A DNA stretch of 56,857 nucleotides from Candidatus Wolfebacteria bacterium RIFOXYD12_FULL_48_21 (lineage in GTDB: Bacteria > Patescibacteriota > Minisyncoccia > UBA6257 > UBA9933). The stretch is taken from the NCBI GenBank assembly GCA_001793945.1, contig MGIW01000003.1:1-56857 (forward strand), given 5' to 3'. Each line of letters opens with the position of its first letter. The stretch's first letter is position 1. This document shows positions 5,266-20,440 of this stretch, in pieces. A program made the position numbers and the translations under genes. The notes below the pieces were generated by a model. The model ran no database searches, had not been told where the DNA came from, and saw nothing but the letters and a program-made list of their open reading frames with translations.

Positions 5266-5385
5266 ATAAACTTTCTCCCAAGCGCGCATCTGATATTTAT
5301 TGCAATAAAGGCCCCTTCATGTGAGCGACCCCTTTTAAAGAACTATTTTAAATAAATCTCCCGAGGGTAGGTGTATAAGGGATTC

Positions 5386-5533: not shown

Positions 5534-6069
5534 AGTCGCTCGTTTAAGCTAATAATACTCGCCAGCTTACTCACCTCTTCGCGCCCGTCTGCCAGCCGTA
5601 TTTCCTCGCCACCCACCCCTCTCATCTCGCCAATGTTTTGCTTTTCCTCTTCCGTTAACGTGTATGCCTTATATGTCTTACGATTAGTCGCCCGCTCACG
5701 AATCGCCTTGAATAATCCATTTTCTTTTTTATCCGCTGTTCTTTCCAATCGTACCGTTGCGGTATGATCGCTTCGCCCTTGTTCGGGAAACATCGTTACC
5801 GTTGCTTCGTATCCAAAATGCTCAGCTATTATACTTATATTTTCGATCAATGCACCGTGGGCCAAAAAATCGCCTCTGTTCTTGAAATTAAACAAAGTAG
5901 CATCTCTGCCGACAAGATTATAAATATCGATCTCGTTTCCACGCACCTCAAACCGCCACGGCTGGGAATTATCCCCCGATGGTGCATTGATCGCTTCTTG
6001 TATTATTTTTCCGATCAGTTCTCGAGGAATCATTGTGGATATTATACAGGATTTTTGGGGTTTTGGCAT
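5509..6069 (-). CDS. nitroreductase-family protein (Acg-type N-terminal half, apparently truncated)
   Basis: 186 aa. INAPSGDNSQPWRFEV and RERATNRKTY motifs. The ORF ends exactly where the duplicated ThiF tail begins. Confidence 0.6.
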   Translation of the reverse strand: MPKPQKSCIISTMIPRELIGKIIQEAINAPSGDNSQPWRFEVRGNEIDIYNLVGRDATLFNFKNRGDFLAHGALIENISIIAEHFGYEATVTMFPEQGRSDHTATVRLERTADKKENGLFKAIRERATNRKTYKAYTLTEEEKQNIGEMRGVGGEEIRLADGREEVSKLASIISLNERLLLENIVG

Positions 6070-6414: not shown

Positions 6415-6428
6415 CCTTGCTAATAAAA

Positions 6429-6452
6429 ATGCCCTCGGAAATCCGAGGGCAT
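6429..6452. terminator. hairpin terminator between convergent small genes
   Basis: GCCCTCGG-AAAT-CCGAGGGC. A T-run follows on the minus strand (ATTTTTATT); the T-run on the plus strand is weaker. Confidence 0.6.
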
Positions 6453-6483: not shown

Positions 6484-6657
6484 CTATTTTGAAGCCGGGA
6501 TGTGAAGCTTGTCGCTTTGATCTCCTTTGTCATCGTAAACGCGCACATCCCGATGCGGTTCCGGATGACTCTTGCTCGTATGATTGCTGCTCGGCATACT
6601 TGATGTGTTTGGACTTCTTTTCTCCCCTTCCTTTGGGTACCTATTATCCTTACTCAC
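6484..6657 (-). CDS. 57-aa His/Asp/Lys-rich small protein (GTG start), not in the ORF track
   Basis: AGAGGTG precedes the GTG. Product: VSKDNRYPKEGEKRSPNTSSMPSSNHTSKSHPEPHRDVRVYDDKGDQSDKLHIPASK. Resembles the 63-aa product of 6965-7156. Sits behind leader L1 and ahead of the terminator. Confidence 0.4.
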   Translation of the reverse strand: MSKDNRYPKEGEKRSPNTSSMPSSNHTSKSHPEPHRDVRVYDDKGDQSDKLHIPASK

Positions 6658-6794
6658 GGCATCACCTCTTTTGTGTTAAGCATCTTACGGGCCGATCATT
6701 CTTTTTGAATGCTCAATTAAGCATTGTGCGCCGGCAAAATAATTGTCGTGTTCTGAGCTTATTATAGGATATATATATATATATATATTGTCAA
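6658..6794 (-). promoter_or_regulatory. L leader copy 1 with (TA)10-spacer promoter
   Basis: TTGACA (6789-6794), 22-nt spacer made mostly of TA repeats, TATAAT (6761-6766). The conserved core follows: TTGCCGGCGCACAATGCTTAATTGAGCATTCAAAAAGAATGATCGGC. Confidence 0.55.
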
Positions 6795-6820
6795 GGGCTT
6801 GCAGACATCCACTTTTACCC

Positions 6821-6940
6821 CTCCTTCTCCCACCATTTGCCGTCTTTTTCGGAAAAGAACCGTATTATTTGTTCTGCGGAATATTCTTTCATGGCTGGCA
6901 TATTGCCCTTAGTATAGGGGATTTTTGTGTTTGGTGCAAA
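6821..6940 (-). repeat. R module copy 1 (promoter plus leaderless 28-codon sORF)
   Basis: Minus strand: TTGCAC, 17 nt, TATACT, 9 nt, ATG. The sORF at 6815-6901 encodes MPAMKEYSAEQIIRFFSEKDGKWWEKEG and then stops. Confidence 0.85.
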
Positions 6941-6942
6941 AA

Positions 6943-6962
6943 AGAGGCGCCTGCGCGCCTCT
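6943..6962 (-). terminator. rho-independent terminator abutting R copy 1
   Basis: AGAGGCGC-GCAG-GCGCCTCT then TTTTTT on the minus strand. The T-run runs into the TTGCAC -35 of R. Confidence 0.7.
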
Positions 6963-6964
6963 TG

Positions 6965-7156
6965 CTAATCGTCATCTTTCCTTCCGAAAAACCCGGCAAG
7001 GAAATCCATGAAGCTTTCGCTTTCACGAACTCCATGAGTCTCGCCCTCCTTTTTCCCGTCATCACCATAGTGATAGTAATCAACATGGCGATAGGGATGC
7101 CCGGAACTTTCGTGCGGCTTACTCGGCTCAGTCGTGTTCGGAGTATGCTTGCTCAT
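6965..7156 (-). CDS. 63-aa His/Tyr/Asp-rich small protein
   Basis: MSKHTPNTTEPSKPHESSGHPYRHVDYYHYGDDGKKEGETHG...FMDFLAGFFGRKDDD. AAGGAGG lies ~7 nt upstream. Terminator follows immediately. Confidence 0.55.
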   Translation of the reverse strand: MSKHTPNTTEPSKPHESSGHPYRHVDYYHYGDDGKKEGETHGVRESESFMDFLAGFFGRKDDD

Positions 7157-7183
7157 CGCTACCTCCTTTTCGTTGTTCTGCGT

Positions 7184-7429
7184 TTAAGATAACTGTCTCT
7201 CCGCTTCTTCTACTTCGTATACAAGAGCCTCCTTTCTTGTCGCCTCAAGCAATGCGCCGGCGATATGCTCCTTGGGCGTGTATCCCGGCTCAAACTTTAT
7301 GCCATGCTTTTCGCACAGCGTTGAAAGCGATTCGTCAGACAACTTTTCCAATCGCCCCTCGAATTCCAGCCACTCTTCCCACTTCCATCCGTTCATCTCT
7401 TTACCCGGCCCAAAAGTTTGTTCGGTCAT
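7184..7429 (-). CDS. 81-aa hypothetical protein
   Basis: AGGAGG RBS. The start ATG overlaps the stop of a 24-codon upstream sORF (ATGA). Paralog of 6193-6414. Confidence 0.55.
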   Translation of the reverse strand: MTEQTFGPGKEMNGWKWEEWLEFEGRLEKLSDESLSTLCEKHGIKFEPGYTPKEHIAGALLEATRKEALVYEVEEAERQLS

Positions 7430-7508
7430 ATCTTCCTCCTATTATGATGTATATTTTCTGCTACCAATATGTGCTTATTACGACCTTTTGTCAATTGCAT
7501 ATAGAACC

Positions 7509-7628
7509 CTCCTTCTCCCACCATTTGCCGTCTTTTTCGGAAAAGAACCGTATTATTTGTTCTGCGGAATATTCTTTCATGGCTGGCATATTGCCCTTAG
7601 TATAGGGGATTTTTGCGTTTGGTGCAAA
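7509..7628 (-). repeat. R module copy 2
   Basis: Same promoter and start as copy 1. The sORF at 7491-7589 reads on to ...EKEGSICN (32 aa). Confidence 0.85.
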
Positions 7629-7643
7629 AAATGGGCAATCCGC

Positions 7644-8285
7644 TTATCGCCTCCAAAACTGCCATTTCTTATCTTTCTTTTCCTTGCGCTTTTTTTCTCC
7701 TATTATCCTTGCTTCGTCTTTTACCTTCTTCTTTAAATCCTCCGTGCGATATTCTTTTTCCAAATCATGCGCCTCCACTTGAAATCCTTTGTTTTCAAGC
7801 ATGCCTTTTACCCGTTCAAGATGGTTCACGCCCACAATAAATGCAATATTTCGTACACTATCTTTCTTTCTTAAATATTCCTCCAGTCCCTGCACGAACG
7901 CCTTTTCTCTTTTCTCGGTCGACGGTTTTATCCGTATAGTTAGAAATCTTTGCATTTTTGCATCGACAAAAATATGCTTATCGCCATATTTTTCTTCAAG
8001 TATTGTTTTCCCGGAATATATATTCTTTTTCCACCCGTCACCCGGAATCTTGTCGTATGGGCCGCCTTCTTCCACAATAAGATCGGGATTTTCTTCTTCA
8101 CATAATTGCAATAATTTATCCCGTAGCGTTTTTAAGGATGCGTCGAATATCCCTAATAGCTCTTCGGAAAATCCCGCGACCCTCATTTTTTTGATATGCC
8201 GCTTGATATGCCCCTTTGCCTGTATGTGATGCACTACTCCAATCAATTTAATATGTATTTTTTTATAATCTATTTCCTTTGTCAT
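7644..8285 (-). CDS. Tiki/TraB/GumN-like protein with K/R/E-rich tail (copy 1)
   Basis: Start at MTKEIDYKK. IKLIGVVH (GxxH), PDLIVEEGG and FIVGVNHLERVKGMLENKGFQVE resemble the two GxxH motifs plus an acidic motif of the TraB/GumN/ChaN fold. About 85% identical to 16042-16713. Confidence 0.45.
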   Translation of the reverse strand: MTKEIDYKKIHIKLIGVVHHIQAKGHIKRHIKKMRVAGFSEELLGIFDASLKTLRDKLLQLCEEENPDLIVEEGGPYDKIPGDGWKKNIYSGKTILEEKYGDKHIFVDAKMQRFLTIRIKPSTEKREKAFVQGLEEYLRKKDSVRNIAFIVGVNHLERVKGMLENKGFQVEAHDLEKEYRTEDLKKKVKDEARIIGEKKRKEKKDKKWQFWRR

Positions 8286-8305
8286 ATTATTATTTAGCAT
8301 AAGAA

Positions 8306-8331
8306 AAGGGCTCGCGAAACGCGAGCCCTTT
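8306..8331 (-). terminator. intercistronic hairpin (attenuator-like)
   Basis: GGGCTCGCG-TTTC-GCGAGCCC followed by TTTTCTTAT on the minus strand. Lies between the acidic peptide gene and the TraB-like gene. Confidence 0.5.
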
Positions 8332-8347
8332 AGTATAGCGATGACGA

Positions 8348-8503
8348 TCAATCGTCGTCGTCCGGCTCATTCCCCGAAGTATCCGAGTTGCTTCGTGGAT
8401 CATCGTTTCCACACTCCTTCCACGCCGTTTCTTCCGCCTGATCATCGGACACATCAGGATACCCCTCGTCGTCATCCCCAAAAATAAAGTCGAACAGTCC
8501 CAT
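8348..8503 (-). CDS. 51-aa highly acidic peptide (copy 1)
   Basis: AAGGAGG then 7 nt then ATG. Product: MGLFDFIFGDDDEGYPDVSDDQAEETAWKECGNDDPRSNSDTSGNEPDDDD. The longer start in the ORF track lies inside the leader. Confidence 0.6.
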   Translation of the reverse strand: MGLFDFIFGDDDEGYPDVSDDQAEETAWKECGNDDPRSNSDTSGNEPDDDD

Positions 8504-8635
8504 GGCTAAGCCTCCTTTGTGCCAAGTATTCTGCGTGCCGATCATTCTTTTTGAATGCTCAATTAAGCATTGTGCGCCGGCAAAATAATTGTCGTGTTCT
8601 GATTTACTTTATACCCTATATATAACTCTCGTCAA
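8504..8635 (-). promoter_or_regulatory. L leader copy 2 with well-spaced promoter
   Basis: TTGACG (8630-8635), 16-nt spacer with only (TA)4, TATAAA (8608-8613). Same conserved leader core as the other L copies. Confidence 0.6.
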
Positions 8636-8657
8636 TCCCCTGTAATGTCTACCTGCA

Positions 8658-9794
8658 TCACTCGAATCCAATTGCTTTATGCACTTCTTTAATATCAGCT
8701 TCGCGCTTTGCCTTTGATTCCTCTGTGTGATAATCCGGATCAAATATCGCATCCAAACTTACATCGAATTTACCCGACAAAACCTTCTCTCCCAATGCCA
8801 ATCTCCTTACTATATAAGCGATCACCGGACCGCACATCGTCGCGGCATCACCCAACTGTGGCCATGAATACAATGTCTTCCCCACTTCCAAAATAGATTG
8901 CTGCATGCGCGGAACCACCATATACGGGCCGGCTATTTGCGTTGCCAATTTAGGCATGTCGGTCGGCGCCATGGTCTTTAATGTTTCCATTGAAATATCC
9001 CCCGCCGCGCCGTTAAACAGCTGCAATTCCGGATCAAGGTCATGTCGCTCTATATCAACGATGACGCCATCGCCATTGTCGGTCGCCATGATAAGCGGCA
9101 AGCCCTTCTTTTTTGCCGCTTCACGCAACATGATCTTCATCGGCAAGAAATCCACTTCCTCTATTACCACATCTGCGCCATCCAAAAACTCATCCATATT
9201 CTCAGAAGATACACCCTTGTCGTACATATGCACCGTACCATAGGGGTTCAGCTGTACAATATGACTCGCGACCAAATGCGCTTTGTTCTTGTTCAGCGCG
9301 GAGCAATCATACCGTAATCGGTTCAGGTTTGGGCCGGAAACCACATCCGCATCGGCTATTTTGATCGTCTTCGCGCCACCCATCATGGCAATCGTCAAGG
9401 CCGGATGACTACCCACGCTTAATCCGGCAATGGCAACCGTATAGTTATAAAATTTTTCCTGCTCCTCTTTGGTGATTAGGTTTTTATTGCGCGCAGTCCG
9501 CAACTCTTGATGCACCGCATCCGGCAAATAATGGATCAGATTTTTCGTATACGGAAAATAGAACCACTCCCCATCTTCTTCCATCGACTTGCCCGCCAAA
9601 TATTCTTTTTTAAATGCGGCACAGTCTTCCTTGTGCTCGGGAATGAACTTATATTTTGGATTTCGTACCTGAAAAAGTTCGTCGAGCAATGCATCGTACG
9701 CATCTATGGTCTCGATGATCTCAAACTTTTTCTTGAAATCTTCCAGCGACTCCGTCGCCTTATTCCACTGCATCGGTTTTATTTGCGTATCCAT
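8658..9794 (-). CDS. ThiF/E1-like adenylyltransferase (Rv1355c-type ThiF domain, no nitroreductase domain)
   Basis: 378 aa. LRTARNKNLITKEEQEKF, VAIAGLSVGSH (Rossmann), ADADVVSGPNLNRLRY, IMATDNGDGVIVDIERHDLDP and LYSWPQLGDAA. 16-nt overlap with the upstream PaaK-like gene. Confidence 0.7.
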   Translation of the reverse strand: MDTQIKPMQWNKATESLEDFKKKFEIIETIDAYDALLDELFQVRNPKYKFIPEHKEDCAAFKKEYLAGKSMEEDGEWFYFPYTKNLIHYLPDAVHQELRTARNKNLITKEEQEKFYNYTVAIAGLSVGSHPALTIAMMGGAKTIKIADADVVSGPNLNRLRYDCSALNKNKAHLVASHIVQLNPYGTVHMYDKGVSSENMDEFLDGADVVIEEVDFLPMKIMLREAAKKKGLPLIMATDNGDGVIVDIERHDLDPELQLFNGAAGDISMETLKTMAPTDMPKLATQIAGPYMVVPRMQQSILEVGKTLYSWPQLGDAATMCGPVIAYIVRRLALGEKVLSGKFDVSLDAIFDPDYHTEESKAKREADIKEVHKAIGFE

Positions 9795-11284
9795 TTTTGT
9801 TTTGTTCCGGGCTTAAAATGAGTTGGATGTTCTGCGGGCCATAGGCTTATCTTCGGCCGCGCGCGCTCTTTCAAGTAATTCGAAAGTTCCCTGAATTCCG
9901 AATTGTTTTCGCGCAAGAATTTGAATACTTCCTCCGTCAGGATGTCTGCCAGTTTTTTGCTTTCCTTTTTTCCTTTTTTCATCTCGATGTGTATTTCGAG
10001 ATATTGGTTCTGCGCGTCATCAAATGCCGTCATCATGGAAAACTTTCCGGTTACATATGGATGCAACGCATCCTTCAGAAGCACCTCGCGAATCGTCTCC
10101 GGATAGATCTGTAAGCCGTAAAGCGTAGTCGAAAAGTCATTTCGCTCATACACATAAACGAATGGCAGTTGTTGCTCATTCTTCAACTTTGCCCTCTTCA
10201 TTTCCTTGCCCCAGTCGATCCCCTGAATTTTAATGCACTCCATCATTTCGCCATACCCTACCACTCCGCCATTATCTCCGATCGCGTAGCGGACCAACGG
10301 GATAGCACTATTCCCCGTAAGCACCACCTCGCCGTCCGAAGCCTCAAATATGATTTGCAACGGATTATATTGCGCCAGCGTCGGCGTTTTTTTAATTTCC
10401 GAAAAAATATCTTCAAACAACCCCATGTTTTTCATCGCCAATCTTCGTACAAGGATCGCCGTTGGCGTTTCAAATGCCATCGCGCCGATATCCGCAGAGC
10501 CATAAATGCTCATGATGTCTTGAAACAGATTCTTGATCCCTGTTTTTTCCACAAGGTAATCCCTGAAGTTCTCGGTGTATGCCTCTGCTGCGGTCACTAT
10601 GCGCATGTTCAGTTTTTTAAAATCCACCCCGCGCGAACTTCCTTCATCAATAATATCCTTTACCATTGGCGGATATCCCGCCAAAATAACCTGCCCGTAC
10701 AGCGGGGCTATATTTTTTAATGCTTTGAATATCTCTTCCTTATTTATTCCCGGCGTTATGATAGAAACAGGATATTTCCCCCGGTCCGCGGCAATCTCAA
10801 ACGCCTTATAGGTGATCAATCCACCGATCCAAATCCCCATCCCAAATGCCACTATGACCAATGTCGGCTTTTCAACACCAAAAGAACTGTTGCGCAAAAA
10901 AAATTCATGAATGAGTGCGGCATTTTTATCCGCCTCTTCTGTTCGGGGAAAATAAAACGGCTCCCCCGTAGAACCCGAAGTAGCCGTAAAAACAAGTGGT
11001 TTATTCAAATTTCCATCCCAGCACAATTTTTCCAATGGATACTGACGCAAATAATTCTTCTTGCTCGTCAATGGCACACGCTGAAAATCTTCCCAGGTCA
11101 CAATTTTATTATGATCCTTGATCCCGTTCTTTTTCAAAAAATCCTTGTAGGCCGGCACGCGCTGTGCGGCATCATGAAACAGCGCGAGTGCGCGCTTTCG
11201 TCCCTCCTTCTCCCACCATTTGCCGTCTTTTTCGGAAAAGAACCGTATTATTTGTTCTGCGGAATATTCTTTCATGGCTGGCAT
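9779..11284 (-). CDS. PaaK/coenzyme-F390-synthetase-like adenylate-forming enzyme
   Basis: 501 aa. FTATSGSTGEPFYFPRT matches the AMP-binding TSG(S/T)TG motif. The first 28 codons are supplied by R copy 3. Confidence 0.7.
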   Translation of the reverse strand: MPAMKEYSAEQIIRFFSEKDGKWWEKEGRKRALALFHDAAQRVPAYKDFLKKNGIKDHNKIVTWEDFQRVPLTSKKNYLRQYPLEKLCWDGNLNKPLVFTATSGSTGEPFYFPRTEEADKNAALIHEFFLRNSSFGVEKPTLVIVAFGMGIWIGGLITYKAFEIAADRGKYPVSIITPGINKEEIFKALKNIAPLYGQVILAGYPPMVKDIIDEGSSRGVDFKKLNMRIVTAAEAYTENFRDYLVEKTGIKNLFQDIMSIYGSADIGAMAFETPTAILVRRLAMKNMGLFEDIFSEIKKTPTLAQYNPLQIIFEASDGEVVLTGNSAIPLVRYAIGDNGGVVGYGEMMECIKIQGIDWGKEMKRAKLKNEQQLPFVYVYERNDFSTTLYGLQIYPETIREVLLKDALHPYVTGKFSMMTAFDDAQNQYLEIHIEMKKGKKESKKLADILTEEVFKFLRENNSEFRELSNYLKERARPKISLWPAEHPTHFKPGTKQKWIRK

Positions 11285-11323
11285 ATTGCCCTTAGTATAG
11301 GGGATTTTTGCGTTTGGTGCAAA
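11204..11323 (-). repeat. R module copy 3 (the only copy fused in frame to a long gene)
   Basis: Identical promoter and start. The reading frame continues as ...WWEKEGRKRALALFHDAAQRVPAYKDFL. Confidence 0.85.
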
Positions 11324-11341
11324 TATGTGGTTTTCAATTAT

Positions 11342-11370
11342 TTGACATTATTTTTATTTCGTATGATAAT
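11342..11370 (+). promoter_or_regulatory. sigma70-type promoter for radical SAM gene A
   Basis: TTGACA, 17 nt, GATAAT. About 50 nt upstream of the AAGGAG RBS and ATG at 11423. Divergent from R copy 3. Confidence 0.5.
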
Positions 11371-11422
11371 CTTTTCAGTATAGGAGTCTTTAACAATCAC
11401 ATATTCCATAAGGAGCTTTGTC

Positions 11423-12541
11423 ATGCAAAATTCTACACTCCCTGTTCTGCCCCAAGCCGTCATGCCTACTATTAAGGTCGTGTCGAGCACATGCAATCTT
11501 CGCTGCCACTATTGCTATTACAATGCATTAGACCAATCCCGCCCGAATCCAATGAGCACTAAGACTGTCACGAATTTGATCAAAAAAACGATTGAGTTTG
11601 TGCAAGACGACTATGTTCACTTCACATGGCACGGCGGAGAGCCTCTCTTGGCCGGAATGAATTTTTATGAACATATCCTCCGTATCCAAGAGCTGTACGG
11701 CAAGAAGAAAACAATCATCAACGGCATCCAAACCAATGCGACTCTTGTCAGTGACCGGTGGGCGAGCTTCTTCAAGAAACACGATTTCCGTGTTGGGGTA
11801 AGTATTGACGGCCCACCTATGATCCAAAATGCGCATCGAGTACTACCGTCACAAGGAGGAAGTTCTCGATTAGTACAACAAGGATTGCGTGCGCTCCAGC
11901 GCCATGACATCTACCCGCCAGCGATAGCGGTCGTTACCCGAGAATCCCTCGGCAATGCTCGGAAGATCTTCCAGTATTTCCTAAGGAACCATGTCCGTAG
12001 CATACACATCAAAGAATGCTACGAGATAGATCCTTCAACAGGGAGGCCCACTGCGCTTTCTGTTATGCCGGATGAATTCACTGCTTTCCTGATCGAAATA
12101 TTTGACATGTGGTTCGATCTGGATGACCCAAGTATTTCCATCAGAAATCTCGAGCAATTAGTTCGTGGCCTCGTCGGCGGTGAGCCATCCCTCTGCGAAG
12201 CCACGGGTAAATGCTGGCTCTTCCCCGTTGTTGAAGCAGATGGAACAGTTGGCGCATGCGATAGCTTCCCTATCCGTGACTATCACTTCGGCAACATAAA
12301 TGAAATGAGTTGGGGCGATCTCTTTGCAAGTGCCGGCAATATTCGATTCTCTGAGAATATCCGGCAAAATGAAGATAGGTGTCGCTCGTGCGAATGGTTT
12401 TCCATATGCCACGGGTGCTGCTTGCGTCATGCGCATTCCCCCGTTACTCACGAGTGGCACCATAATCTTTTCTGTACATCAAAAAAGCGCCTATTCGGCC
12501 ACATCAAGGCACGCATAGACGCAATTCATGCAGGGGGCTAG
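11423..12541 (+). CDS. radical SAM/SPASM maturase, anSME-like (A)
   Basis: CNLRCHYC (CX3CX2C), FTWHGGEPLL, GIQTNATLV, VGVSIDGP. C-terminal SPASM cysteines: CEATGKC...GACDSF...CRSCEWFSICHGCC. Confidence 0.8.
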   Translation: MQNSTLPVLPQAVMPTIKVVSSTCNLRCHYCYYNALDQSRPNPMSTKTVTNLIKKTIEFVQDDYVHFTWHGGEPLLAGMNFYEHILRIQELYGKKKTIINGIQTNATLVSDRWASFFKKHDFRVGVSIDGPPMIQNAHRVLPSQGGSSRLVQQGLRALQRHDIYPPAIAVVTRESLGNARKIFQYFLRNHVRSIHIKECYEIDPSTGRPTALSVMPDEFTAFLIEIFDMWFDLDDPSISIRNLEQLVRGLVGGEPSLCEATGKCWLFPVVEADGTVGACDSFPIRDYHFGNINEMSWGDLFASAGNIRFSENIRQNEDRCRSCEWFSICHGCCLRHAHSPVTHEWHHNLFCTSKKRLFGHIKARIDAIHAGG

Positions 12542-13563
12542 TAAGCCCCCTTTTTTATTACACTGATAACTCGTGTCATCTCGTCAATAAATTTCTTGTC
12601 GATTGCACGCTTCTTTTCAAAATAATATTGTGATAATGGATACATTTGCCATATCACATAATAGTACAGCCCATCATAAGAGATGATTTTCTTTTCTTTT
12701 ATCGCTTCCATATCATACAACAGCACATCGATCCACCCTAAATTTCTCAATAGCGGCGAGAAATGCTTTGCATGCGCTTGGTAGATGTACCCACTCGGAG
12801 CAATCCCCCCTACGACAATCTCGGTAAGAATATTTTTCTTGGACATTTTTGGCTGAACCAGATCTAATAAATCCATGCCGTCCCGTGATGCTGCCGCGCC
12901 AATGATCTTACTCAATTTTCTGTTGTTATCGAGAAGCACATGCACCATCTCATGCGCCATAACACCCAATGCGGTTTCCATATATTCATCAGAGTTATCT
13001 TCTATCGCTGCTTCCAATGTAATATGACCGCATCCCAAATTCGCACCGCCAGAGGCGCTTTTGTTGTTTATCGGACTCGGTATGATGTGCACGACAAAAT
13101 CCTCCAGCTTTTTATCGGGCTTGATCGCTCGCTCCATCGCCGCCATAAGCTTTATTCCATTTTCCGACTCCGCAATTTTCTTCAACGATCGACCCCATGC
13201 CTTGATCCCCTTCTCATCCCATATTTTTTTAAATCGTGGCTCGAACATGCGAAACACGCTCCGAATCTTTTTATACTCACCTTCCATTACATTTTTTTCT
13301 ACCTCCTCCCATGCTTCTTTCTCGGAGTTAAGAAAAAAATATTGTCCAAGATACACGAGTTTGTTCTTTTTATATTCAAACCCATATTTCCGCATAACAT
13401 CCCCAAAAACATTGATTGCTTCGCTTTCCTTTTCCGTCAGTACCCCCGTTTGCTTTATCCATTCTTTGTTATATTCAGTTCTGCATGAAAAATGCCACTC
13501 GGCAAGGTTCGAGATAAAGAAAAATAAATTTGAAATCCTTGAATGGACTATTTTATACTTCAT
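12538..13563 (-). CDS. HExxH putative zinc metallopeptidase (paralog of 22529-23383)
   Basis: Start at MKYKIVHSR. The longer ORF would overlap the precursor gene. Motif VMAHEMVHVLL. Shares SRxSNxxFF and ExxVxGxxPxGY blocks with the other HExxH protein. Stop overlaps the rSAM stop by 4 nt (convergent). Confidence 0.5.
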   Translation of the reverse strand: MKYKIVHSRISNLFFFISNLAEWHFSCRTEYNKEWIKQTGVLTEKESEAINVFGDVMRKYGFEYKKNKLVYLGQYFFLNSEKEAWEEVEKNVMEGEYKKIRSVFRMFEPRFKKIWDEKGIKAWGRSLKKIAESENGIKLMAAMERAIKPDKKLEDFVVHIIPSPINNKSASGGANLGCGHITLEAAIEDNSDEYMETALGVMAHEMVHVLLDNNRKLSKIIGAAASRDGMDLLDLVQPKMSKKNILTEIVVGGIAPSGYIYQAHAKHFSPLLRNLGWIDVLLYDMEAIKEKKIISYDGLYYYVIWQMYPLSQYYFEKKRAIDKKFIDEMTRVISVIKKGAY

Positions 13564-13600
13564 GATATTCAGTATACCAAAATGATTCGCACTATAAAAT

Positions 13601-13624
13601 AAAGGCTCACATCCGTGAGCCTTT
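13601..13624 (-). terminator. hairpin after the precursor-like sORF (partial terminator)
   Basis: AAAGGCTCAC-GGAT-GTGAGCCTTT then ATTTTAT on the minus strand. Lies between the 62-aa ORF and the HExxH gene. Confidence 0.5.
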
Positions 13625-13654
13625 ATACTATTCTCGACAACAGAACACCTTCCC

Positions 13655-13843
13655 TTAGCCAACAGACTTACTGTGGCCATTGCTGCTGTGGTTGTTGTAG
13701 CTCGGCCCATCATGATGGCAATACAGCCACTGATCACGCGCAACCCTCTCGATTGCACCGAGTACTAAGGCGCCTCGAGGCACCTGCGCACACCCATGAT
13801 TTCCACTTCCCAAACTCTTTTTGGGTACTACCGTTGTCTGCAT
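13655..13843 (-). CDS. 62-aa candidate RiPP precursor (A)
   Basis: AGGAGG then 7 nt then ATG. Product: MQTTVVPKKSLGSGNHGCAQVPRGALVLGAIERVARDQWLYCHHDGPSYNNHSSNGHSKSVG. Own promoter: TTGACA (13980-13985), 17 nt, CACAAT. Confidence 0.5.
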   Translation of the reverse strand: MQTTVVPKKSLGSGNHGCAQVPRGALVLGAIERVARDQWLYCHHDGPSYNNHSSNGHSKSVG

Positions 13844-13998
13844 AATACATCCTCCTTAGGCCAGTTGAATGAATCTTGCTTCTGTTGTTGATACTACTAC
13901 GCAATCAAATTCGATCAATGCGAATCGAATTGCATTTGATTAAATTACTAAATTAAATTGTGTGCTACTTCTACCGAATTGTCAAATGCCCACAAATA

Positions 13999-14117
13999 TC
14001 CTTCTCCCACCATTTGCCGTCTTTTTCGGAAAAGAACCGTATTATTTGCTCTGCGGAATAGTCTTTCATGGCTGGCATAGTGCCATTAGTATAGGGTATT
14101 TTTGGGGTTGGTGCAAA
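13999..14117 (-). repeat. R module copy 4 (most diverged)
   Basis: TTGCAC, 17 nt, ATACTA-type -10. The sORF at 13971-14078 encodes MPAMKDYSAEQIIRFFSEKDGKWWEKDICGHLTIR. The terminal AAGGAGG is mutated to AAGGAT. Confidence 0.8.
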
Positions 14118-14134
14118 AAAAAATAAAGGGATCC

Positions 14135-14623
14135 TTATCCTTTATTGATACCTGCTTTATTCATACGCTCTACCTGCGCTTTTAATTCAGCCAATGGCGG
14201 CACATTGAACCGAGCCCTTTCTTCGTCGGTCATCCCCTTCTTAATAGGGGCGAGCGCCCACTTGCTCTTGGCGCTTTTTTTAAAGAATTGCGTGCCAAAT
14301 TTTTGTTTCTTTCCTTGTTTTATCAATAGTCGATCGGTTCCTGCAGCATGGAGCCATTTCGCTTTTTGATACCCTTTTTTTATGCTTTGTTCGGAAAGCT
14401 TTATTGCCGTTTTATAATCAGCCAACAATTGCCCATGATGGAATATCATTGCTGCAATATAGAAATCTTTACCGGTAATTACCGTTCCCTCCTTTAGCAT
14501 TCTTTTTATAGTATTCTTGCGCTCGACATCTTTTTTTTCGACTACCGAAAAATCGCCGCTTGATCCGATTGCCATACGATCAGCTTGATCTTCTTTAAAC
14601 AATTTTTCCAGATCCTTGTTCAT
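14135..14623 (-). CDS. hypothetical protein (162 aa)
   Basis: Clean ORF with a T-run hairpin at its 3' end (14113-14145). I recognise no diagnostic motif. Confidence 0.5.
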   Translation of the reverse strand: MNKDLEKLFKEDQADRMAIGSSGDFSVVEKKDVERKNTIKRMLKEGTVITGKDFYIAAMIFHHGQLLADYKTAIKLSEQSIKKGYQKAKWLHAAGTDRLLIKQGKKQKFGTQFFKKSAKSKWALAPIKKGMTDEERARFNVPPLAELKAQVERMNKAGINKG

Positions 14624-14701
14624 AAAAAAATATCTACACCCTGCGCTGTGTAGCTATTATAAACTCAGACATCATTACGCACAAGCAAGTTCCCCGTGTA
14701 T

Positions 14702-15451
14702 TTAATCTTTATACTTAATAAACTTAAGCGTTTTTTCAAAAAGCTCCTTTTGGGCTTTTTTGCCGGAAAATAAATGATTGGTCTTTTTTAGTACATAATA
14801 TTTTGACTTGGCCTTGTCTGGTGTTGCACGATAATATTTTTTTGCATCTGTGTCCGTACTTCCTTCCGCAGTAACAATACATGCGTTTTTATGCAAGGAA
14901 TGGAATATGCCCACGGAATCGACGCTGCCAAGTTCTTTATAAAATTTTCCATTGATAGCTATTTTATTACCCTGATTTTTTAATGTTTTCTCCGAATCAA
15001 TAGCAAAGATCTTGTCCATTGCCTTTTTAGACCAGGGCAAGCGACTCTGATCCCATAAAACAAGCTTGGTATTTTTTAAATATTTTTTATTATTAAATAA
15101 AAATAATATTGACATAATTGCGCCAAAACTATGACCGACAAAAATAAACTCGAGATACTTTTTTGGCAATTTTTCTATAACATTTTTTAACTCACTGCTA
15201 TAAAAAGATAGATCGAGATCTTTTATATCAAGTGCATTTCTTTTTTGAATATCTTCATTGCAGAGATTTATACGAAGGGTATCAAAGCCGCTCTTACGAA
15301 AAATCTCCGTCGCATTAATAAAAAGCGGCAAGTCCCGTCCACCAGACAGTCCGCTTAAAAAAATAACGAGTCTTGAGTTGCTCTTTTTCGCAAAAAGTTT
15401 CCCATAAAGGAACCTGCCGGGGATTTTTTTTGATTCAATTTTTATCTCCAT
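14702..15451 (-). CDS. alpha/beta hydrolase
   Basis: Start at MEIKIESKK. Nucleophile elbow FVGHSFGA (GxSxG). Typical length of ~250 aa. Confidence 0.65.
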   Translation of the reverse strand: MEIKIESKKIPGRFLYGKLFAKKSNSRLVIFLSGLSGGRDLPLFINATEIFRKSGFDTLRINLCNEDIQKRNALDIKDLDLSFYSSELKNVIEKLPKKYLEFIFVGHSFGAIMSILFLFNNKKYLKNTKLVLWDQSRLPWSKKAMDKIFAIDSEKTLKNQGNKIAINGKFYKELGSVDSVGIFHSLHKNACIVTAEGSTDTDAKKYYRATPDKAKSKYYVLKKTNHLFSGKKAQKELFEKTLKFIKYKD

Positions 15452-15467
15452 GCTTTTAATTAAAAGG

Positions 15468-15502
15468 CCCCACCACAAAATATATTATCGTATGTGGTGG
15501 GG
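15468..15502 (-). terminator. 10-bp perfect hairpin between the DUF397-like gene and the hydrolase gene
   Basis: CCCCACCACA with a 15-nt loop and TGTGGTGGGG. The minus-strand 3' side is only moderately T-rich, so this could be an attenuator or a processing site. Confidence 0.35.
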
Positions 15503-15529
15503 CATTACACTGGAGCCCATGCTCAGCTT

Positions 15530-15742
15530 CTAAGGCAGATCGAACTCGCCCTTTTTTACGCCCTGGATAAAAGCATCCCACTCCGCATGGGTGAATGACA
15601 GAGTCGGGCTCTGCGGGTCTTTGGTATCTCTTACATCGACCGTTTCGCCGATTTTGACAGCGACACATGTTTTGATGTAAAGATATCTGGTAATTGAAGA
15701 AGTGAGAAATCCTTCCTCTTCGTGCGGATTCCGCTTAGACAT
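15530..15742 (-). CDS. DUF397-like small protein
   Basis: 70 aa. CVAVKIGETVDVRDTKDPQSPTLSFTHAEWDAFIQGVKKGEFDL closely follows the DUF397 pattern (CVEVA...VRDSKDP..P.L.F...EW.AF..GVK.GEFD). AAAGGAG RBS. Confidence 0.6.
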   Translation of the reverse strand: MSKRNPHEEEGFLTSSITRYLYIKTCVAVKIGETVDVRDTKDPQSPTLSFTHAEWDAFIQGVKKGEFDLP

Positions 15743-15879
15743 AATCAGCATCTCCTTTTCAATTTTTACTAACTATCTTGCGTGCCGATCATTCTTTTTG
15801 AATGCTCAATTAAGCATTGTGCGCCGGCAAAATAACTATCTTGTTCTGAGCTGATTATATGATATATATATATTGTCAA
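15743..15879 (-). promoter_or_regulatory. L leader copy 3 with (TA)6-spacer promoter
   Basis: TTGACA (15874-15879), 14-nt spacer, TATAAT (15854-15859). Conserved leader core identical to the other copies. Confidence 0.55.
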
Positions 15880-15905
15880 GGGCTTGCAGACATCCACTTT
15901 TACCC

Positions 15906-16025
15906 CTCCTTCTCCCACCATTTGCCGTCTTTTTCGGAAAAGAACCGTATTATTTGTTCTGCGGAATATTCTTTCATGGCTGGCATATTGCCCTTAGTAT
16001 AGGGGATTTTTGCGTTTGGTGCAAA
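15906..16025 (-). repeat. R module copy 5
   Basis: The sORF at 15900-15986 gives the same 28-aa product as copy 1. The flank through the L promoter is also shared with copy 1. Confidence 0.85.
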
Positions 16026-16041
16026 AATACGGGCAATTCGC

Positions 16042-16713
16042 TTATCGCCTCCAAAGCTGCCATTTTGGCCTTTTCTTTTCCTTCTTTTCTTTGCGCTTTT
16101 TTTCTCTCATTTTTAGCGCATTTTCTCTCATTCTCTGCGCATCTTCCCTTATTTTCCTTCTTAGATCGTCTGTATAATATTTATCACTCAAATTATGCGT
16201 CTCCACTTGAAATCCTTTATTTTCGAGCATAATTTTTACCCGCTCGAGATGGTTCACGCCCACAATAAATGCAACATTCCGCACATCACTTTTCTTCCTT
16301 AAATACTCCTCCAGCCCCCGTACGAACGCCTTTTCCCTTTTCTCGGTCGACGGTTTTATCCGTATAGTTAGGAATCTTTGCATTTTTGCATCGACAAAAA
16401 TATGCTTATCGCCATATTTTTCTTCAAGTATTGTTTTCCCGGAATATATATTCTTTTTCCACCGATCGGCTGGGGTTTTATCGTATGCCCCACCCTCCTC
16501 TACCACAAGGTCGGGATTTTCTTCTTCGCATAATTGCAACAATTCATTACGCAACGCTTTCAAAGTTATATCTAATACGCCCAGTAGGTCTTCGGAAAAT
16601 CCCTTGGCGCGCAACTTTTGAATATGCCACTTGATATGCCCGTTTGCTTGCACATAATGAACCAACCCGATCAATCTAATGTGTATTTTTTTGTATTCTA
16701 TTTCCTTTGTCAT
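16042..16713 (-). CDS. Tiki/TraB/GumN-like protein with K/R/E-rich tail (copy 2)
   Basis: 223 aa. IRLIGLVH, PDLVVEEGG and FIVGVNHLERVKIMLENKGFQVE. Paralog of 7644-8285. Confidence 0.45.
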   Translation of the reverse strand: MTKEIEYKKIHIRLIGLVHYVQANGHIKWHIQKLRAKGFSEDLLGVLDITLKALRNELLQLCEEENPDLVVEEGGAYDKTPADRWKKNIYSGKTILEEKYGDKHIFVDAKMQRFLTIRIKPSTEKREKAFVRGLEEYLRKKSDVRNVAFIVGVNHLERVKIMLENKGFQVETHNLSDKYYTDDLRRKIREDAQRMRENALKMREKKRKEKKEKKRPKWQLWRR

Positions 16714-16735
16714 ATTATTTATTCAGTATAAGAAT

Positions 16736-16759
16736 AGGGCTCGCGAAACGCGAGCCCTA
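16736..16759 (-). terminator. intercistronic hairpin (copy of 8306-8331)
   Basis: AGGGCTCGCG-TTTC-GCGAGCCCT. The downstream T-run is weaker than in copy 1. Confidence 0.4.
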
Positions 16760-16777
16760 TTGGAATCAATGCGGCGA

Positions 16778-16930
16778 TCAATCGTCTTCGCCCGGCACAT
16801 TTCCTGAGGTATCCGAGTTATCCTCAGGAGAACCCCCGGCCTCCTTCCACGCCGCTTCTTCCGCCTGATCGTCAGTCGCATCAGGATACCCCTCGTCGTC
16901 ATCCCCAAAAATGAAGTCGAACAATCCCAT
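16778..16930 (-). CDS. 50-aa highly acidic peptide (copy 2), not in the ORF track in this frame
   Basis: AGAGGTG then ATG. Product: MGLFDFIFGDDDEGYPDATDDQAEEAAWKEAGGSPEDNSDTSGNVPGEDD. The listed 16723-16956 ORF is a different frame. Confidence 0.6.
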   Translation of the reverse strand: MGLFDFIFGDDDEGYPDATDDQAEEAAWKEAGGSPEDNSDTSGNVPGEDD

Positions 16931-17065
16931 AGTAGCACCTCTTTTGTGTTAAGCATCTTACGGGCCGATCATTCTTTTTGAATGCTCAATTAAGCATTGT
17001 GCGCCGGCAAAATAACTATCTTGTTCTGAGCTGATTATATGATATATATATATAGCTCTTGTCAA
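16931..17065 (-). promoter_or_regulatory. L leader copy 4 with 20-nt TA-rich spacer promoter
   Basis: TTGACA (17060-17065), 20-nt spacer, TATAAT (17034-17039). The 5' part matches L3 and the 3' part matches L1. Confidence 0.55.
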
Positions 17066-17090
17066 TACCCTTACCAGCGCGCTTTTACCC

Positions 17091-17210
17091 CTCCTTCTCC
17101 CACCATTTGCCGTCTTTTTCGGAAAAGAACCGTATTATTTGTTCTGCGGAATATTCTTTCATGGCTGGCATAGTGCCCTTAGTATAGGGGATTTTTGCGT
17201 TTGGTGCAAA
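17091..17210 (-). repeat. R module copy 6
   Basis: The sORF at 17085-17171 gives the 28-aa product. Directly preceded by a terminator, as in copy 1. Confidence 0.85.
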
Positions 17211-17212
17211 AA

Positions 17213-17230
17213 AGAGGCGCTTGCGCCTCT
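17213..17230 (-). terminator. terminator (copy of 20414-20433)
   Basis: AGAGGCG-CAAG-CGCCTCT followed by TTTTTT on the minus strand. Follows the truncated response regulator. Confidence 0.6.
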
Positions 17231-17237
17231 TTTGTTT

Positions 17238-17489
17238 TTACCCTTTCATTAACGCTTGCCGGATCTTTTTTACCACTTCTTCGAGGTCGGTGCCTTTTTC
17301 CATAAAATCTACTGCGCCGAGCTCTTTTGCGAGTGCGTCCCTGTCTTTGAACACGGGCCATGGATTGCTCATGCTCGTGAAAAATATTACCTTTACATTT
17401 TTCATCTCCGGTATATCGCGTAACTCGATAAGATACTCCGTGCCATTCATGCCGGGCATGTTTATGTCGAGCAAAAGCAGGTACGCCAT
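17238..17489 (-). pseudogene. 5'-truncated duplicate of response regulator 20441-20833
   Basis: 17205-17482 is essentially identical to 20406-20685. It encodes only from LLLLDINMPG onward and lacks the N-terminal acidic pocket. A new ATG lies at the junction. Confidence 0.7.
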
Positions 17490-20388: not shown

Positions 20389-20413
20389 ATTGGTATTAAT
20401 CTTATTGCAAAAA

Positions 20414-20433: not shown

Positions 20434-20440
20434 TTTGTTT

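What the first reader, a model, noticed from the sequence alone, without database searches (positions are those of the whole stretch)
6658..17033. Conserved ~100-nt 5' leader present four times upstream of unrelated small ORFs: candidate new cis-regulatory RNA (L)
Copies lie at 6658-6760, 8504-8607, 15743-15853 and 16931-17033, all on the minus strand. They share an invariant core: UUAUUUUGCCGGCGCACAAUGCUUAAUUGAGCAUUCAAAAAGAAUGAUCGGC.

The downstream ORFs are not all homologous:
- a 57-aa His-rich peptide
- two acidic MGLFDF peptides
- a DUF397-like protein

The core can fold in two mutually exclusive ways:
- hairpin AAUGCU-UAAUUG-AGCAUU, enclosed by GCCG...CGGC
- hairpin CAUUC-AAAAA-GAAUG, which consumes the 3' arm of the first hairpin

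Short ORFs inside the leader (MLN, MIGP, MIGTQDS) are not conserved in frame, so the conservation looks RNA-level. I could not match the core to any riboswitch or leader family I know.
Basis: partly seen in the sequence, partly recalled or inferred. Interest (0 to 1): 0.8.

Follow-up and report, generated by a model that had tools for sequence, protein, structure and literature searches.

The report
New structured mRNA leader in Wolfebacteria
A roughly 75-base RNA leader, copied four times in front of small-protein genes in an uncultivated groundwater bacterium, folds into a conserved shape supported by compensatory mutations in relatives and matches no known RNA family, but its function is still unknown.

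Summary
A 52-nt core occurs four times, exactly identical, on the minus strand. Each copy lies between a sigma-70-like promoter and a small gene that has its own terminator.

Nine related lineages carry divergent versions. They come from groundwater and sediment metagenomes and include a Candidatus Wolfebacteria MAG. These versions show a conserved fold:
- an outer helix, AUUUUGC:GYARRAU
- a C·C or C·U mismatch
- a 3-bp helix
- a 15-nt 5' bulge with invariant GCUUAA

In this fold 92% of cells pair, and 8 of 18 pairs show changes on both sides. There are 24 G·U cells against 2 A·C cells, which places the pairing on the sense RNA strand. A sequence not used to build the model was found at 49.7 bits.

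No Rfam family matches. The element contains no terminator, no Shine-Dalgarno (SD) sequestration, no conserved leader peptide and no N-terminal extension.

The exact identity of the four copies partly reflects segmental duplication and gene conversion.

My best reading is a new cis-acting leader RNA that recruits a factor at its conserved bulge. The mechanism is inferred, not shown.

Separately, the promoter spacer carries a (TA)n tract whose length varies between copies and strains.

The parts
6658..6755 (-). L copy 1. Leader from the predicted transcription start (CAGAACA) to the GTG start of the 57-aa His-rich gene. The covariance-model core is 6675-6755.
   Evidence: Exact core. Covariance-model hit of 90.7 bits. 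Sequence.
8504..8601 (-). L copy 2. Leader of acidic peptide A. P1 is 8580-8586 with 8528-8534. P1b is 8576-8578 with 8536-8538. The bulge is 8561-8575. P2 is 8553-8560 with 8540-8547, with its loop at 8548-8552.
   Evidence: 91.8 bits. Structure columns.
15743..15848 (-). L copy 3. Leader of the DUF397 gene.
   Evidence: 94.2 bits.
16931..17028 (-). L copy 4. Leader of acidic peptide B.
   Evidence: 91.7 bits.
6761..6794 (-). Promoter of copy 1. TTGACA, a 22-nt spacer containing a (TA)10-type tract, then TATAAT.
8608..8635 (-). Promoter of copy 2. TTGACG, a 16-nt spacer with a TA tract, then TATAAA.
15854..15879 (-). Promoter of copy 3. TTGACA, a 14-nt spacer with a TA tract, then TATAAT.
17034..17065 (-). 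Promoter of copy 4. TTGACA, a 20-nt spacer with a TA tract, then TATAAT.
6484..6657 (-). The 57-aa His-rich small protein driven by L copy 1. It is a paralogue of the 63-aa protein at 6965-7156. It is followed by a terminator at about 6422-6452.
8348..8503 (-). Acidic peptide A, 51 aa (MGLFDF...NSDTSGNEPDDDD). It is followed by a terminator at about 8301-8330 and then the TraB-like gene at 7644-8285.
15530..15742 (-). DUF397 small protein driven by L copy 3. It is followed by a terminator at about 15461-15502.
16778..16930 (-). Acidic peptide B, 50 aa. It is followed by a terminator at about 16730-16758 and then the TraB-like gene at 16042-16713.
6777..6942 (-). D1 repeat directly upstream of L copy 1. 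It consists of the ligase promoter plus its first 28 codons, ending in a stop. Other D1 copies lie at 7465-7630, 11160-11325 (the real ligase gene start), 13954-14119, 15862-16027 and 17047-17212.
   Evidence: family D1. Sequences.

Best explanation
L is a real, previously undescribed structured 5' leader RNA. It is transcribed from its own sigma-70-type promoter, with the transcript starting at about CAGAACA.

Its conserved fold is one irregular stem:
- P1, 7 bp, AU-rich
- a C·C or C·U mismatch
- P1b, 3 bp
- a 15-nt bulge on the 5' side, with invariant G-C...GCUUAA
- P2, an 8-bp hairpin that is free in sequence but keeps its pairing

Ancestrally, one copy precedes a small acidic-peptide gene in a gene cluster encoding a PaaK-like ligase, a ThiF/E1-like protein, a TraB-like protein and a nitroreductase. 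In the window's lineage the 'promoter + L' module was copied by segmental duplication and recombination in front of four small monocistronic genes. The copies are kept identical by gene conversion together with functional constraint.

Proposed mechanism (inferred, not shown): the invariant bulge or junction, held in place by the covarying helices, is a binding site for a trans-acting factor, more likely a protein than a metabolite. This factor would co-regulate all L-bearing mRNAs after transcription starts, through mRNA stability, processing or translation efficiency. It would not act by occluding the SD or by forming a terminator, because neither is present in the element.
For: Shown:
- Four exact copies are present.
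- Each has a consensus promoter at a fixed distance from CAGAACA, in the window and in all relatives.
- There are 13 distinct variants from about 9 lineages.
- RNAalifold recovers the same fold independently.
- On the MAFFT alignment 91.6% of cells pair. On the model-fitted alignment the figure is 92.3%, against 31-46% when partners are slid.
- 6 to 8 of 18 pairs have changes on both sides. Only 8 of 500 and 2 of 500 shuffles reach this.
- P2 alone has 5 of 8 pairs with changes on both sides.
- There are 24 G·U cells against 2 A·C cells, so the pairing is on the sense RNA strand and is not a DNA palindrome.
- L028, which was not used to build the model, was found at 49.7 bits, E 3e-9, and adds compensatory pairs.
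- 24 columns are invariant, and 13 of these are unpaired, including GCUUAA. Four-fold degenerate sites of the adjacent gene are only 33-50% identical between the same lineages and 67% identical between the window's own paralogues.
- No reading frame is conserved.
- The consensus fold, P1 to P2, is the minimum-free-energy (MFE) structure in 6 of 13 full leaders, and in these folds the SD is largely unpaired.

Inferred: the transcription start, the existence of a trans factor, and the effect on mRNA fate.
Against: - Thermodynamic support is weak. Folding z-scores range from -0.96 to +0.74, and the MFE fold differs between sequences.
- P1 is almost invariant, so it carries little covariation. The structural evidence rests mainly on P2 and two pairs of P1/P1b.
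- There are only about 9 lineages, all close relatives, so relatedness inflates the shuffle statistics.
- No expression platform and no candidate binding protein were identified. The neighbouring response regulators are receiver-only domains.
- No transcript data are available. The promoter spacers of three window copies (14, 20 and 22 nt) are non-optimal.
- Exact identity of the four copies can be produced by gene conversion alone.
Confidence: 0.4

Rival explanations
1. L is a passive mRNA stabiliser or processing signal with no specific ligand. In this reading the roughly 22 bp of stacked helix is a 5'-proximal protective hairpin or an RNase III substrate. Alternatively, the single-stranded UUAAUU just before P2 is an endonuclease site, and cleavage there leaves a hairpin-capped stable mRNA. 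Either way it would give high, constant expression of small genes. This is comparable to 5' stabilisers such as the ompA and aprE leaders (own knowledge) and to the RNase III-processed hmw 5'-UTR hairpin.
For: - The element starts within about 10-15 nt of the predicted 5' end.
- It contains no terminator and does not occlude the SD.
- It acts as a portable module placed in front of unrelated small genes, each with a strong SD and its own terminator.
- The combined helices add up to about 22 bp.
- There is a precedent for an expression-enhancing, RNase III-cleaved 5'-UTR hairpin (PMC12721329).
Against: - A pure stabiliser does not need 13 invariant unpaired positions, including GCUUAA and AGAACA, across lineages whose neutral sites are near saturation.
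- The helices are AU-rich and thermodynamically weak.
- The bulge is strongly one-sided, which is unlike classical RNase III sites.
Confidence: 0.22
2. L is an orphan riboswitch aptamer. The junction or bulge would bind a small molecule or ion, P1 would close on binding, and the small-protein genes would respond.
For: L has the typical riboswitch anatomy:
- a closing P1
- covarying stems
- invariant junction nucleotides
- a 5'-UTR location
- several copies per genome in front of different genes

. His-rich and poly-Asp products would fit a metal-related regulon, though this is speculation.
Against: - There is no expression platform. No terminator is present, the SD lies 11-20 nt beyond P1 and is unpaired in the predicted folds, and the candidate alternative 5' hairpin is weak or absent in 3 lineages.
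- The phylogenetic range is very narrow. One hit was found among 185,579 species representatives and two among the JGI contigs.
- The gene context does not point to any metabolite.
- The bulge is small (15 nt) for a ligand pocket.
Confidence: 0.13
3. The conservation acts at the DNA level. In this reading TTTGCC...GCTTAA, at about +15 to +40, is an operator or promoter-proximal site for a transcription factor, and the hairpin is incidental.
For: - The invariant blocks lie directly downstream of a conserved promoter.
- P1 is an inverted repeat that hardly varies.
- All L-bearing genes would be co-regulated.
Against: - A DNA site does not explain the compensatory changes in P2.
- It does not explain the 24:2 excess of G·U over A·C, which is strand-specific and specific to RNA.
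- The invariant blocks show no dyad or direct-repeat symmetry.
- No DNA-binding regulator is present in the conserved neighbourhood.
Confidence: 0.08
4. L is a selfish or accidental repeat, either a MITE-like inverted-repeat element or a recombination scar. In this reading its identity among copies reflects recent spread and gene conversion rather than function.
For: - The locus is full of duplications and mosaic junctions: repeat families D1, D3, D6, D7 and D16, and flanks swapped between strains.
- Copy 3 is flanked by an 11-nt direct repeat, CAAGATAGTTA.
- L is bounded by an inverted repeat (P1).
Against: - There are only four copies in 57 kb, all in the same promoter-leader-small-ORF context.
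- Relatives hold a single copy at the orthologous position. Where the adjacent TraB-like gene is present (8 lineages), it is down to 49% identical in amino acids.
- Compensatory substitutions and invariant blocks imply long-term purifying selection.
- The flanking direct repeat is absent from the other copies.
Confidence: 0.05

Closest known systems
Orphan riboswitch candidates and structured 5' leader motifs found by comparative genomics (the Rfam 'Cis-reg' class)
   Same: - It lies in a 5' UTR.
- It has a closing helix, covarying stems and invariant junction nucleotides.
- Several copies per genome sit in front of different genes.
   Different: - It matches none of the 4227 Rfam 15 models, even at E up to 10 on five different homologues.
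- It has no recognisable expression platform.
- It is confined to a handful of Wolfebacteria-like genomes.
- It regulates tiny proteins of unknown function.
Haemophilus influenzae hmw1A 5'-UTR hairpin processed by RNase III (PMC12721329)
   Same: Both are long, imperfect 5'-UTR hairpins acting in cis, in loci where a simple sequence repeat also modulates expression.
   Different: - In hmw the repeat is transcribed and forms one arm of the hairpin. Here the (TA)n tract lies in the promoter spacer, outside the RNA.
- RNase III cleavage is not shown here.
- There is no sequence similarity.
H. influenzae hifA/hifB (TA)n phase-variable promoter (van Ham 1993 and Geluk 1998, as summarised in PMC2651432)
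   Same: A TA dinucleotide tract lies between the -35 and -10 boxes. Its length differs in 2-bp steps between copies and strains, giving spacers of 14, 16, 18, 20 and 22 nt.
   Different: - This concerns the promoter attached to L, not L itself.
- Switching of expression is not shown here.
- The organism is an uncultivated, non-pathogenic bacterium of the Candidate Phyla Radiation (CPR).
5'-terminal mRNA stabiliser hairpins (E. coli ompA leader, B. subtilis aprE leader; own knowledge)
   Same: It is a promoter-proximal stem-loop in the leader of a highly expressed gene, followed by an A-rich linker and a strong SD.
   Different: Those stabilisers need only structure close to the 5' end. L also keeps 13 unpaired positions invariant, and its helices are weak.

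Membership tests
Any Rfam 15 family | Score at or above the family's gathering threshold, or a consistent sub-threshold hit across homologues | tested here: not met
   The gathering-threshold scan of the window finds only tmRNA. E-value scans up to 5-10 found nothing overlapping L, except one sub-threshold match on copy 2 alone (RF02646 Cis8_sRNA, 18.2 bits against a gathering score of 58, E 0.36), which no homologue shares. They covered 5-21 kb of the window, copy 2 alone, and loci L025, L026, L028 and L012.
Riboswitch (generic) | Conserved aptamer fold with covariation and invariant junction nucleotides, located in a 5' UTR | tested here: met
   The 5'-UTR location is inferred from the conserved promoter.
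Riboswitch (generic) | Expression platform: an intrinsic terminator or antiterminator, or SD sequestration coupled to P1 | tested here: not met
No terminator-like site lies in L. In the predicted folds the SD is largely unpaired. The alternative 5' hairpin is weak or absent.
Riboswitch (generic) | Direct, specific binding of a small ligand | not testable with these tools
   This needs in-line probing, ITC or similar.
Leader-peptide attenuator | Conserved short ORF in the leader, coupled to a terminator | tested here: not met
   MLN, MIGP and MIGTQDS are not conserved. A 9-aa ORF, MLILPxxRA, occurs only in L011 and L017. Single-nucleotide indels separate lineages. No terminator is present.
MITE / REP-type mobile repeat | Many dispersed copies with terminal inverted repeats and target-site duplications, and presence/absence polymorphism | tested here: not met
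   The covariance model with filters off finds only the 4 copies in 57 kb. Relatives hold a single orthologous copy. Only copy 3 has a flanking direct repeat.
SSR phase-variable promoter (hif type); this applies to the promoter attached to L | A simple sequence repeat between the -35 and -10 boxes, with length polymorphism among strains | tested here: met
   Spacers are 14, 16, 18, 20 and 22 nt and differ only in the number of TA units. The TA tract of L025 is one TA unit longer than that of L024 and L027, which carry the same L variant and peptide gene. L020 carries G10 instead.
SSR phase-variable promoter (hif type) | Reversible on/off or graded change of expression with repeat number | not testable with these tools
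   This needs reporter assays or metatranscriptomics resolved to the population level.
RNase III-processed 5'-UTR hairpin (hmw type) | About two turns of double-stranded RNA, with mapped RNase III cleavage | tested here: inconclusive
   The helices sum to about 22 bp only if they stack across a 15-nt bulge. Cleavage is not testable here.

The most novel reading that the evidence does not exclude
L may be the sensor domain of a new class of regulatory RNA in CPR/Patescibacteria. It could be either of two things:
- an orphan riboswitch for an unknown ligand, for example a metal or a product of the neighbouring ligase/E1-like/nitroreductase pathway
- an RNA polymerase- or protein-binding leader, such as a put/EAR-like processive antiterminator that lets transcription pass the strong terminator after each small gene

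Together with the (TA)n-variable promoter, it would then control a phase-variable regulon of small acidic, His-rich and DUF397 proteins in an episymbiotic bacterium.
Probability: 0.15. Interest if true: 0.75.

Novelty: new member of a known kind. Interest (0 to 1): 0.5.

Why it matters
Few regulatory RNAs have been described in Candidate Phyla Radiation bacteria (no paper in the held library mentions both Wolfebacteria and riboswitches), and as I understand it these organisms have small genomes and few recognisable transcription factors (own knowledge). A conserved, covariation-supported leader that is shared by a set of tiny, unannotated proteins, and that is attached to a promoter with a length-variable TA tract, would be a concrete handle on how such organisms co-regulate, and possibly phase-vary, small proteins. 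It would also add a new family to the catalogue of cis-regulatory RNAs.

If L proved to bind a ligand or a protein, that partner would point to the function of a conserved but uncharacterised gene cluster. The cluster encodes a PaaK-like ligase, a ThiF/E1-like protein, a TraB-like protein and acidic peptides.

If L is only a stabiliser, it is an ordinary though new leader.

Tried and rejected
Counted on 12 variants, it is not conserved and does no better than shuffles.
It is possible in the window but is not the conserved register. Relatives carry GCCA/GCTA/GCTG on the 5' side and a variable tetranucleotide at the 3' position (CTGC, TAGC, CAGC, CCGC and others; CGGC only in L018).
- **Alternative 5' hairpin** (CAAAAU-loop-AUUUUG) competing with P1. 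It is weak, 0 to -4.2 kcal/mol, and absent in L013, L018 and L020.
- **P0 extension below P1.** Only about 55% of cells pair, and the alignment there is ambiguous.
- **SD sequestration or an anti-SD inside L.** None was found.
- **Leader peptide or N-terminal extension.** The 65-aa MIGTQNTW... form of peptide A exists only in copy 2. The other copies, and all relatives, have stops or no ATG.
- **L as a trans-acting seed.** The complement of GCTTAATTGA occurs in the window no more often than chance.
- **Rfam.** No family matched.
- **Viral contigs.** Three pattern hits, all rejected by the covariance model.
- **Integron attC and MITE readings.** Rejected on copy number and context.
- **A nucleic-acid-binding domain in the neighbouring 81-aa and 79-aa proteins.** No Pfam support.
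- **Enlarging the family.** This was limited. The TraB-like family has only 10 clusters and the peptide family only 6. Both collection scans gave only one further species.

Full report
**Observation**

Shuffled sequence gives none. A covariance model run without filters over the whole window finds these four copies (90.7-94.2 bits) and nothing else above noise.

Each copy lies between a sigma-70-like promoter (TTGACA ... TATAAT/TATAAA) and a small ORF with a strong Shine-Dalgarno (SD) sequence. Each ORF is followed by its own hairpin plus T-run. The four units therefore have the layout promoter, L, small ORF, terminator.

The downstream ORFs are:
- a 57-aa His-rich protein
- two acidic MGLFDF peptides
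- a DUF397 protein (PF04149, E 1e-12)

**Origin and context**

The identical ligase protein is found on Rifle aquifer groundwater scaffolds. The only hit among 185,579 species-representative genomes is a MAG named Candidatus Wolfebacteria bacterium RIFOXYB1_FULL_54_12. The window also carries a tmRNA gene, which is most simply read as a bacterial chromosome from the Candidate Phyla Radiation (CPR, Patescibacteria).

L sits in a locus that encodes:
- a PaaK-like ligase
- a ThiF/Rv1355c-like E1 enzyme
- radical SAM/SPASM enzymes
- a TraB-like protein
- a nitroreductase remnant
- receiver-only response regulators

.

The locus is heavily rearranged:
- The segment 'L, acidic peptide, terminator, TraB-like gene' is duplicated (families D3 and D6).
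- The 57-aa protein is a paralogue of the 63-aa protein at 6965-7156.
- Three of the four L copies are preceded by repeat D1. D1 is the ligase promoter plus its first 28 codons, ending in a stop, and it is present six times.

Between strains of the same species, the flanks of L copies are exchanged. For example, the His-gene copy in L002 carries the promoter and 5' flank of the DUF397 copy. This is direct evidence of gene conversion among the copies.

The four copies are therefore not independent occurrences. Even so, four-fold degenerate sites of the two TraB-like paralogues are only 67% identical. Fifty-two unchanged bases in all four copies therefore need gene conversion, selection, or both.

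**Relatives**

Homologues of the TraB-like protein (only 10 clusters in 5.8 billion proteins) and of the acidic peptide (6 clusters) led to divergent loci. One pattern scan of each large collection added one more species.

In total there are 13 distinct L variants from about nine lineages:
- the four window copies
- L013
- L021, which is the same as L022 and L023
- L011
- L017
- L018
- L020
- L024, which is the same as L025 and L027
- L026
- L028

.

In most relatives a single L precedes the acidic peptide gene. In the RIFOXYB1 species the peptide and the TraB-like gene are absent, and L precedes DUF397. The association is therefore with small genes of this cluster, not with one gene family.

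**Structure**

RNAalifold on the MAFFT alignment predicts one irregular stem:
- P1: alignment columns 17/18-23 with 69-74/75 (AUUUUGC with GYARRAU)
- a C·C or C·U mismatch
- P1b: columns 25-27 with 65-67
- a 15-nt bulge on the 5' side
- P2: columns 43-50 with 56-63, with a 4-6 nt loop

| Measure | MAFFT alignment | Model-fitted alignment, 13 variants |
|---|---|---|
| Cells forming a standard pair | 91.6% | 92.3% |
| Cells paired when 3' partners are slid by 1-3 columns | 31-46% | 31-46% |
| Pairs with changes on both sides | 6 of 18 | 8 of 18 |
| Shuffles that reach this | 8 of 500 | 2 of 500 |

P2 carries most of the signal. Its stem reads:
- GAGCAUUC/GAAUGAUC in the window
- GAUUAUGC/GCAUGAUC in L018
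- GAUUAUCC/GGAUGAUC in L024
- GGCCGAUC/GAACGGUC in L026
- GGCUGUUC/GAAUGGCU in L028

L028 was not used to build the model. It was found at 49.7 bits (E 3e-9) and adds compensatory pairs in both P1b and P2.

G·U cells outnumber A·C cells 24 to 2. This places the pairing on the sense strand of an RNA and argues against a DNA palindrome.

Twenty-four columns are invariant. Thirteen of them are unpaired: AGAACA at the predicted 5' end, C29, and GCUUAA in the bulge. In the same lineages, four-fold sites of the adjacent gene are only 33-50% identical.

Caveats:
- The lineages are few and related.
- P1 hardly varies.
- The model-fitted alignment leans towards the model's structure.
- Thermodynamic z-scores are unremarkable, from -0.96 to +0.74.
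- The consensus fold is the minimum-free-energy (MFE) structure in only about half of the full leaders.

**What is not there**

In the closest relative, a G-to-U change breaks it while completing P2. The proposed pair of mutually exclusive folds is therefore a peculiarity of one lineage and not a conserved switch.
- *Other helices are unsupported.* An alternative 5' hairpin that could compete with P1 is weak or absent in three lineages. An extension of P1 is not supported.
- *There is no expression platform.* No terminator-like site lies inside L. The SD lies 11-20 nt beyond P1 and is largely unpaired in the predicted folds.
- *L is not coding.* The short ORFs in the leader are not conserved, and 1-nt indels separate lineages. 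The 65-aa extended form of peptide A is unique to copy 2.
- *No Rfam family matches L*, in the window or in divergent homologues, even at E up to 10.
- *Nothing turned up elsewhere.* No paper in the held library links Wolfebacteria with riboswitches. Pattern hits in viral contigs are chance matches.

**Mechanism**

Three things are shown:
- There is a conserved RNA fold on the sense strand.
- Invariant unpaired nucleotides sit at its junction.
- It lies directly downstream of a conserved promoter.

How it acts is inferred. Neither a terminator nor SD occlusion is available. The unpaired bulge is also more conserved than a simple protective hairpin would require. I therefore commit to a factor-binding cis-regulatory leader. 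In this model a protein (more likely) or a ligand recognises the GCUUAA junction, which is presented by P1/P1b and P2, and changes the stability, processing or translation of every L-bearing mRNA. My confidence in this specific mechanism is about 0.4. My confidence that L is a genuine structured cis-acting RNA of some kind is about 0.8.

Rivals:
- A passive stabiliser or RNase target, 0.22. The RNase III-processed hmw leader is a precedent (PMC12721329).
- An orphan riboswitch, 0.13.
- A DNA operator, 0.08. The G·U bias and the P2 covariation argue against it.
- A MITE-like or accidental repeat, 0.05. Copy number, context and long-term conservation argue against it.

**Second layer, noticed while mapping the promoters**

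The -35/-10 spacer of every TA-type L promoter contains a (TA)n tract. The spacer is 14, 16, 18, 20 or 22 nt long depending on the copy and the strain. The tract in L025 is one TA unit longer than in L024 and L027, which carry the same L variant and peptide gene. L020 has a G10 run instead.

This is the architecture of the H. influenzae hifA/hifB phase-variable promoter (PMC2651432). Whether expression switches here is untested. Assembly slippage in TA runs cannot be fully excluded.

**Comparison and novelty**

L works like an orphan riboswitch candidate or a protein-binding leader, but it is not a member of any described family. It meets the aptamer-like criteria: fold, covariation, invariant junction and 5'-UTR position. 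It fails the expression-platform criterion. Ligand binding cannot be tested here.

I classify it as a new member of a known kind, namely structured cis-regulatory leader RNAs. Its range is very narrow, and it has an unusual history of duplication within one locus.

**Verdict**

L is a new structured leader RNA, but with a different fold from the one proposed and without the proposed switch.
- Interest is 0.5.

Noticed in passing
window 6767-6788, 8614-8629, 15860-15873, 17040-17059 (minus strand); also L011, L017, L021-L025, L027, L020: The -35/-10 spacer of the L promoters holds a (TA)n tract. Spacer length is 14, 16, 18, 20 or 22 nt, differing in 2-bp steps between copies and between strains. 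In L025 the tract is one TA unit longer than in L024 and L027, which carry the same L variant and peptide gene. L020 has a G10 run instead. This resembles SSR-driven promoter phase variation of the H. influenzae hif type.
   Followed up: partly
window 6777-6942, 7465-7630, 11160-11325, 13954-14119, 15862-16027, 17047-17212 (minus strand): Repeat D1 has six copies of 166 nt at 75-100% identity. It consists of the PaaK-like ligase promoter (TTTGCA-18-TATACT), a near-leaderless start, and the first 28 codons (MPAMKEYSAEQIIRFFSEKDGKWWEKEG). In the non-genic copies it ends in a stop. It precedes three L copies and two other genes, and looks like the footprint of repeated recombination. Its -10 region forms a terminator-like hairpin on the plus strand (CCCTTAGTATAGGGG followed by a T-run).
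   Followed up: partly
L002 14469-14670 versus window 6607-6808; L001 4204-4405 versus window 16880-17081; gene order in L004 and L007: Strains of the same species differ in which promoter and 5' flank is joined to which L copy, and in gene order. In L007 the 81-aa and 63-aa genes lie upstream of the ligase, as in the distant relative L017. This indicates gene conversion and recombination at the L and D1 repeats.
   Followed up: partly
window 5385-5519 versus 8665-8780; 5509-6069: A 116-nt copy (90% identity) of the 3' end of the ThiF-like gene lies next to a nitroreductase ORF of only 186 aa. Relatives have about 350 aa directly after ThiF. The block 'L, peptide ... His57' therefore looks inserted between ThiF and the nitroreductase, with decay of the latter.
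   Followed up: no
window 17208-17485 versus 20411-20688: This is a 278-nt duplicate at 97% identity. It is a truncated copy (83 aa) of the response-regulator gene at 20441-20833, including its terminator.
   Followed up: no
window 8348-8503, 16778-16930, 6965-7156; L011, L017, L018, L020, L024, L026, L028: The acidic peptides (42-51 aa) form a tiny family. They have a conserved N-terminus, MG[LMIF]F..[LF]G, and a conserved C-terminus, NS[DN]TSGN[VEL]P[DG][DE]DD. The C-terminus of the 63-aa protein (FMDFLAGFFGRKDDD) resembles the N-terminus of these peptides. They are nearly always followed by a TraB/PrgY-like gene, which suggests a peptide plus a processing enzyme. Their function is unknown.
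   Followed up: partly
window 22169-22420, 31325-31486, 38066-38321, 39142-39436, 40278-40714, 49691-49874, 53987-54208 and others: The right half of the window is packed with other intergenic repeat families. One is a set of GC-rich hairpin units (GGATTCCCGC...GCGGGAATGACA). Another is a set of tracts with 7-nt periodicity (GGTATRR / GAGGTNR). A third is a 61-nt unit (GTCATCCCGAGTGCAATGCAGCGAAGCG...). They are unrelated to L.
   Followed up: no
window 36509-36850 (+): A tmRNA gene (RF00023, 114.7 bits) lies here.
   Followed up: no
window 15838-15848 and 15771-15781 (minus strand): The 11-nt direct repeat CAAGATAGTTA flanks the core of L copy 3 on both sides. In several relatives the 3' flank also resembles the 5' CAGAACA region (AAGAACAG in L011 and L026). 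This may be a consequence of both segments being complementary to the P1 5' strand. It is not explained further.
   Followed up: partly
L011 1964-1993; L017 4855-4884: A 9-codon ORF, AUG UUG AUU UUG CCA ... GCU UAA (MLILPxxRA), runs through P1 and the bulge and ends at the invariant GCUUAA. It occurs only in these two lineages. The other lineages lack the start codon.
   Followed up: yes
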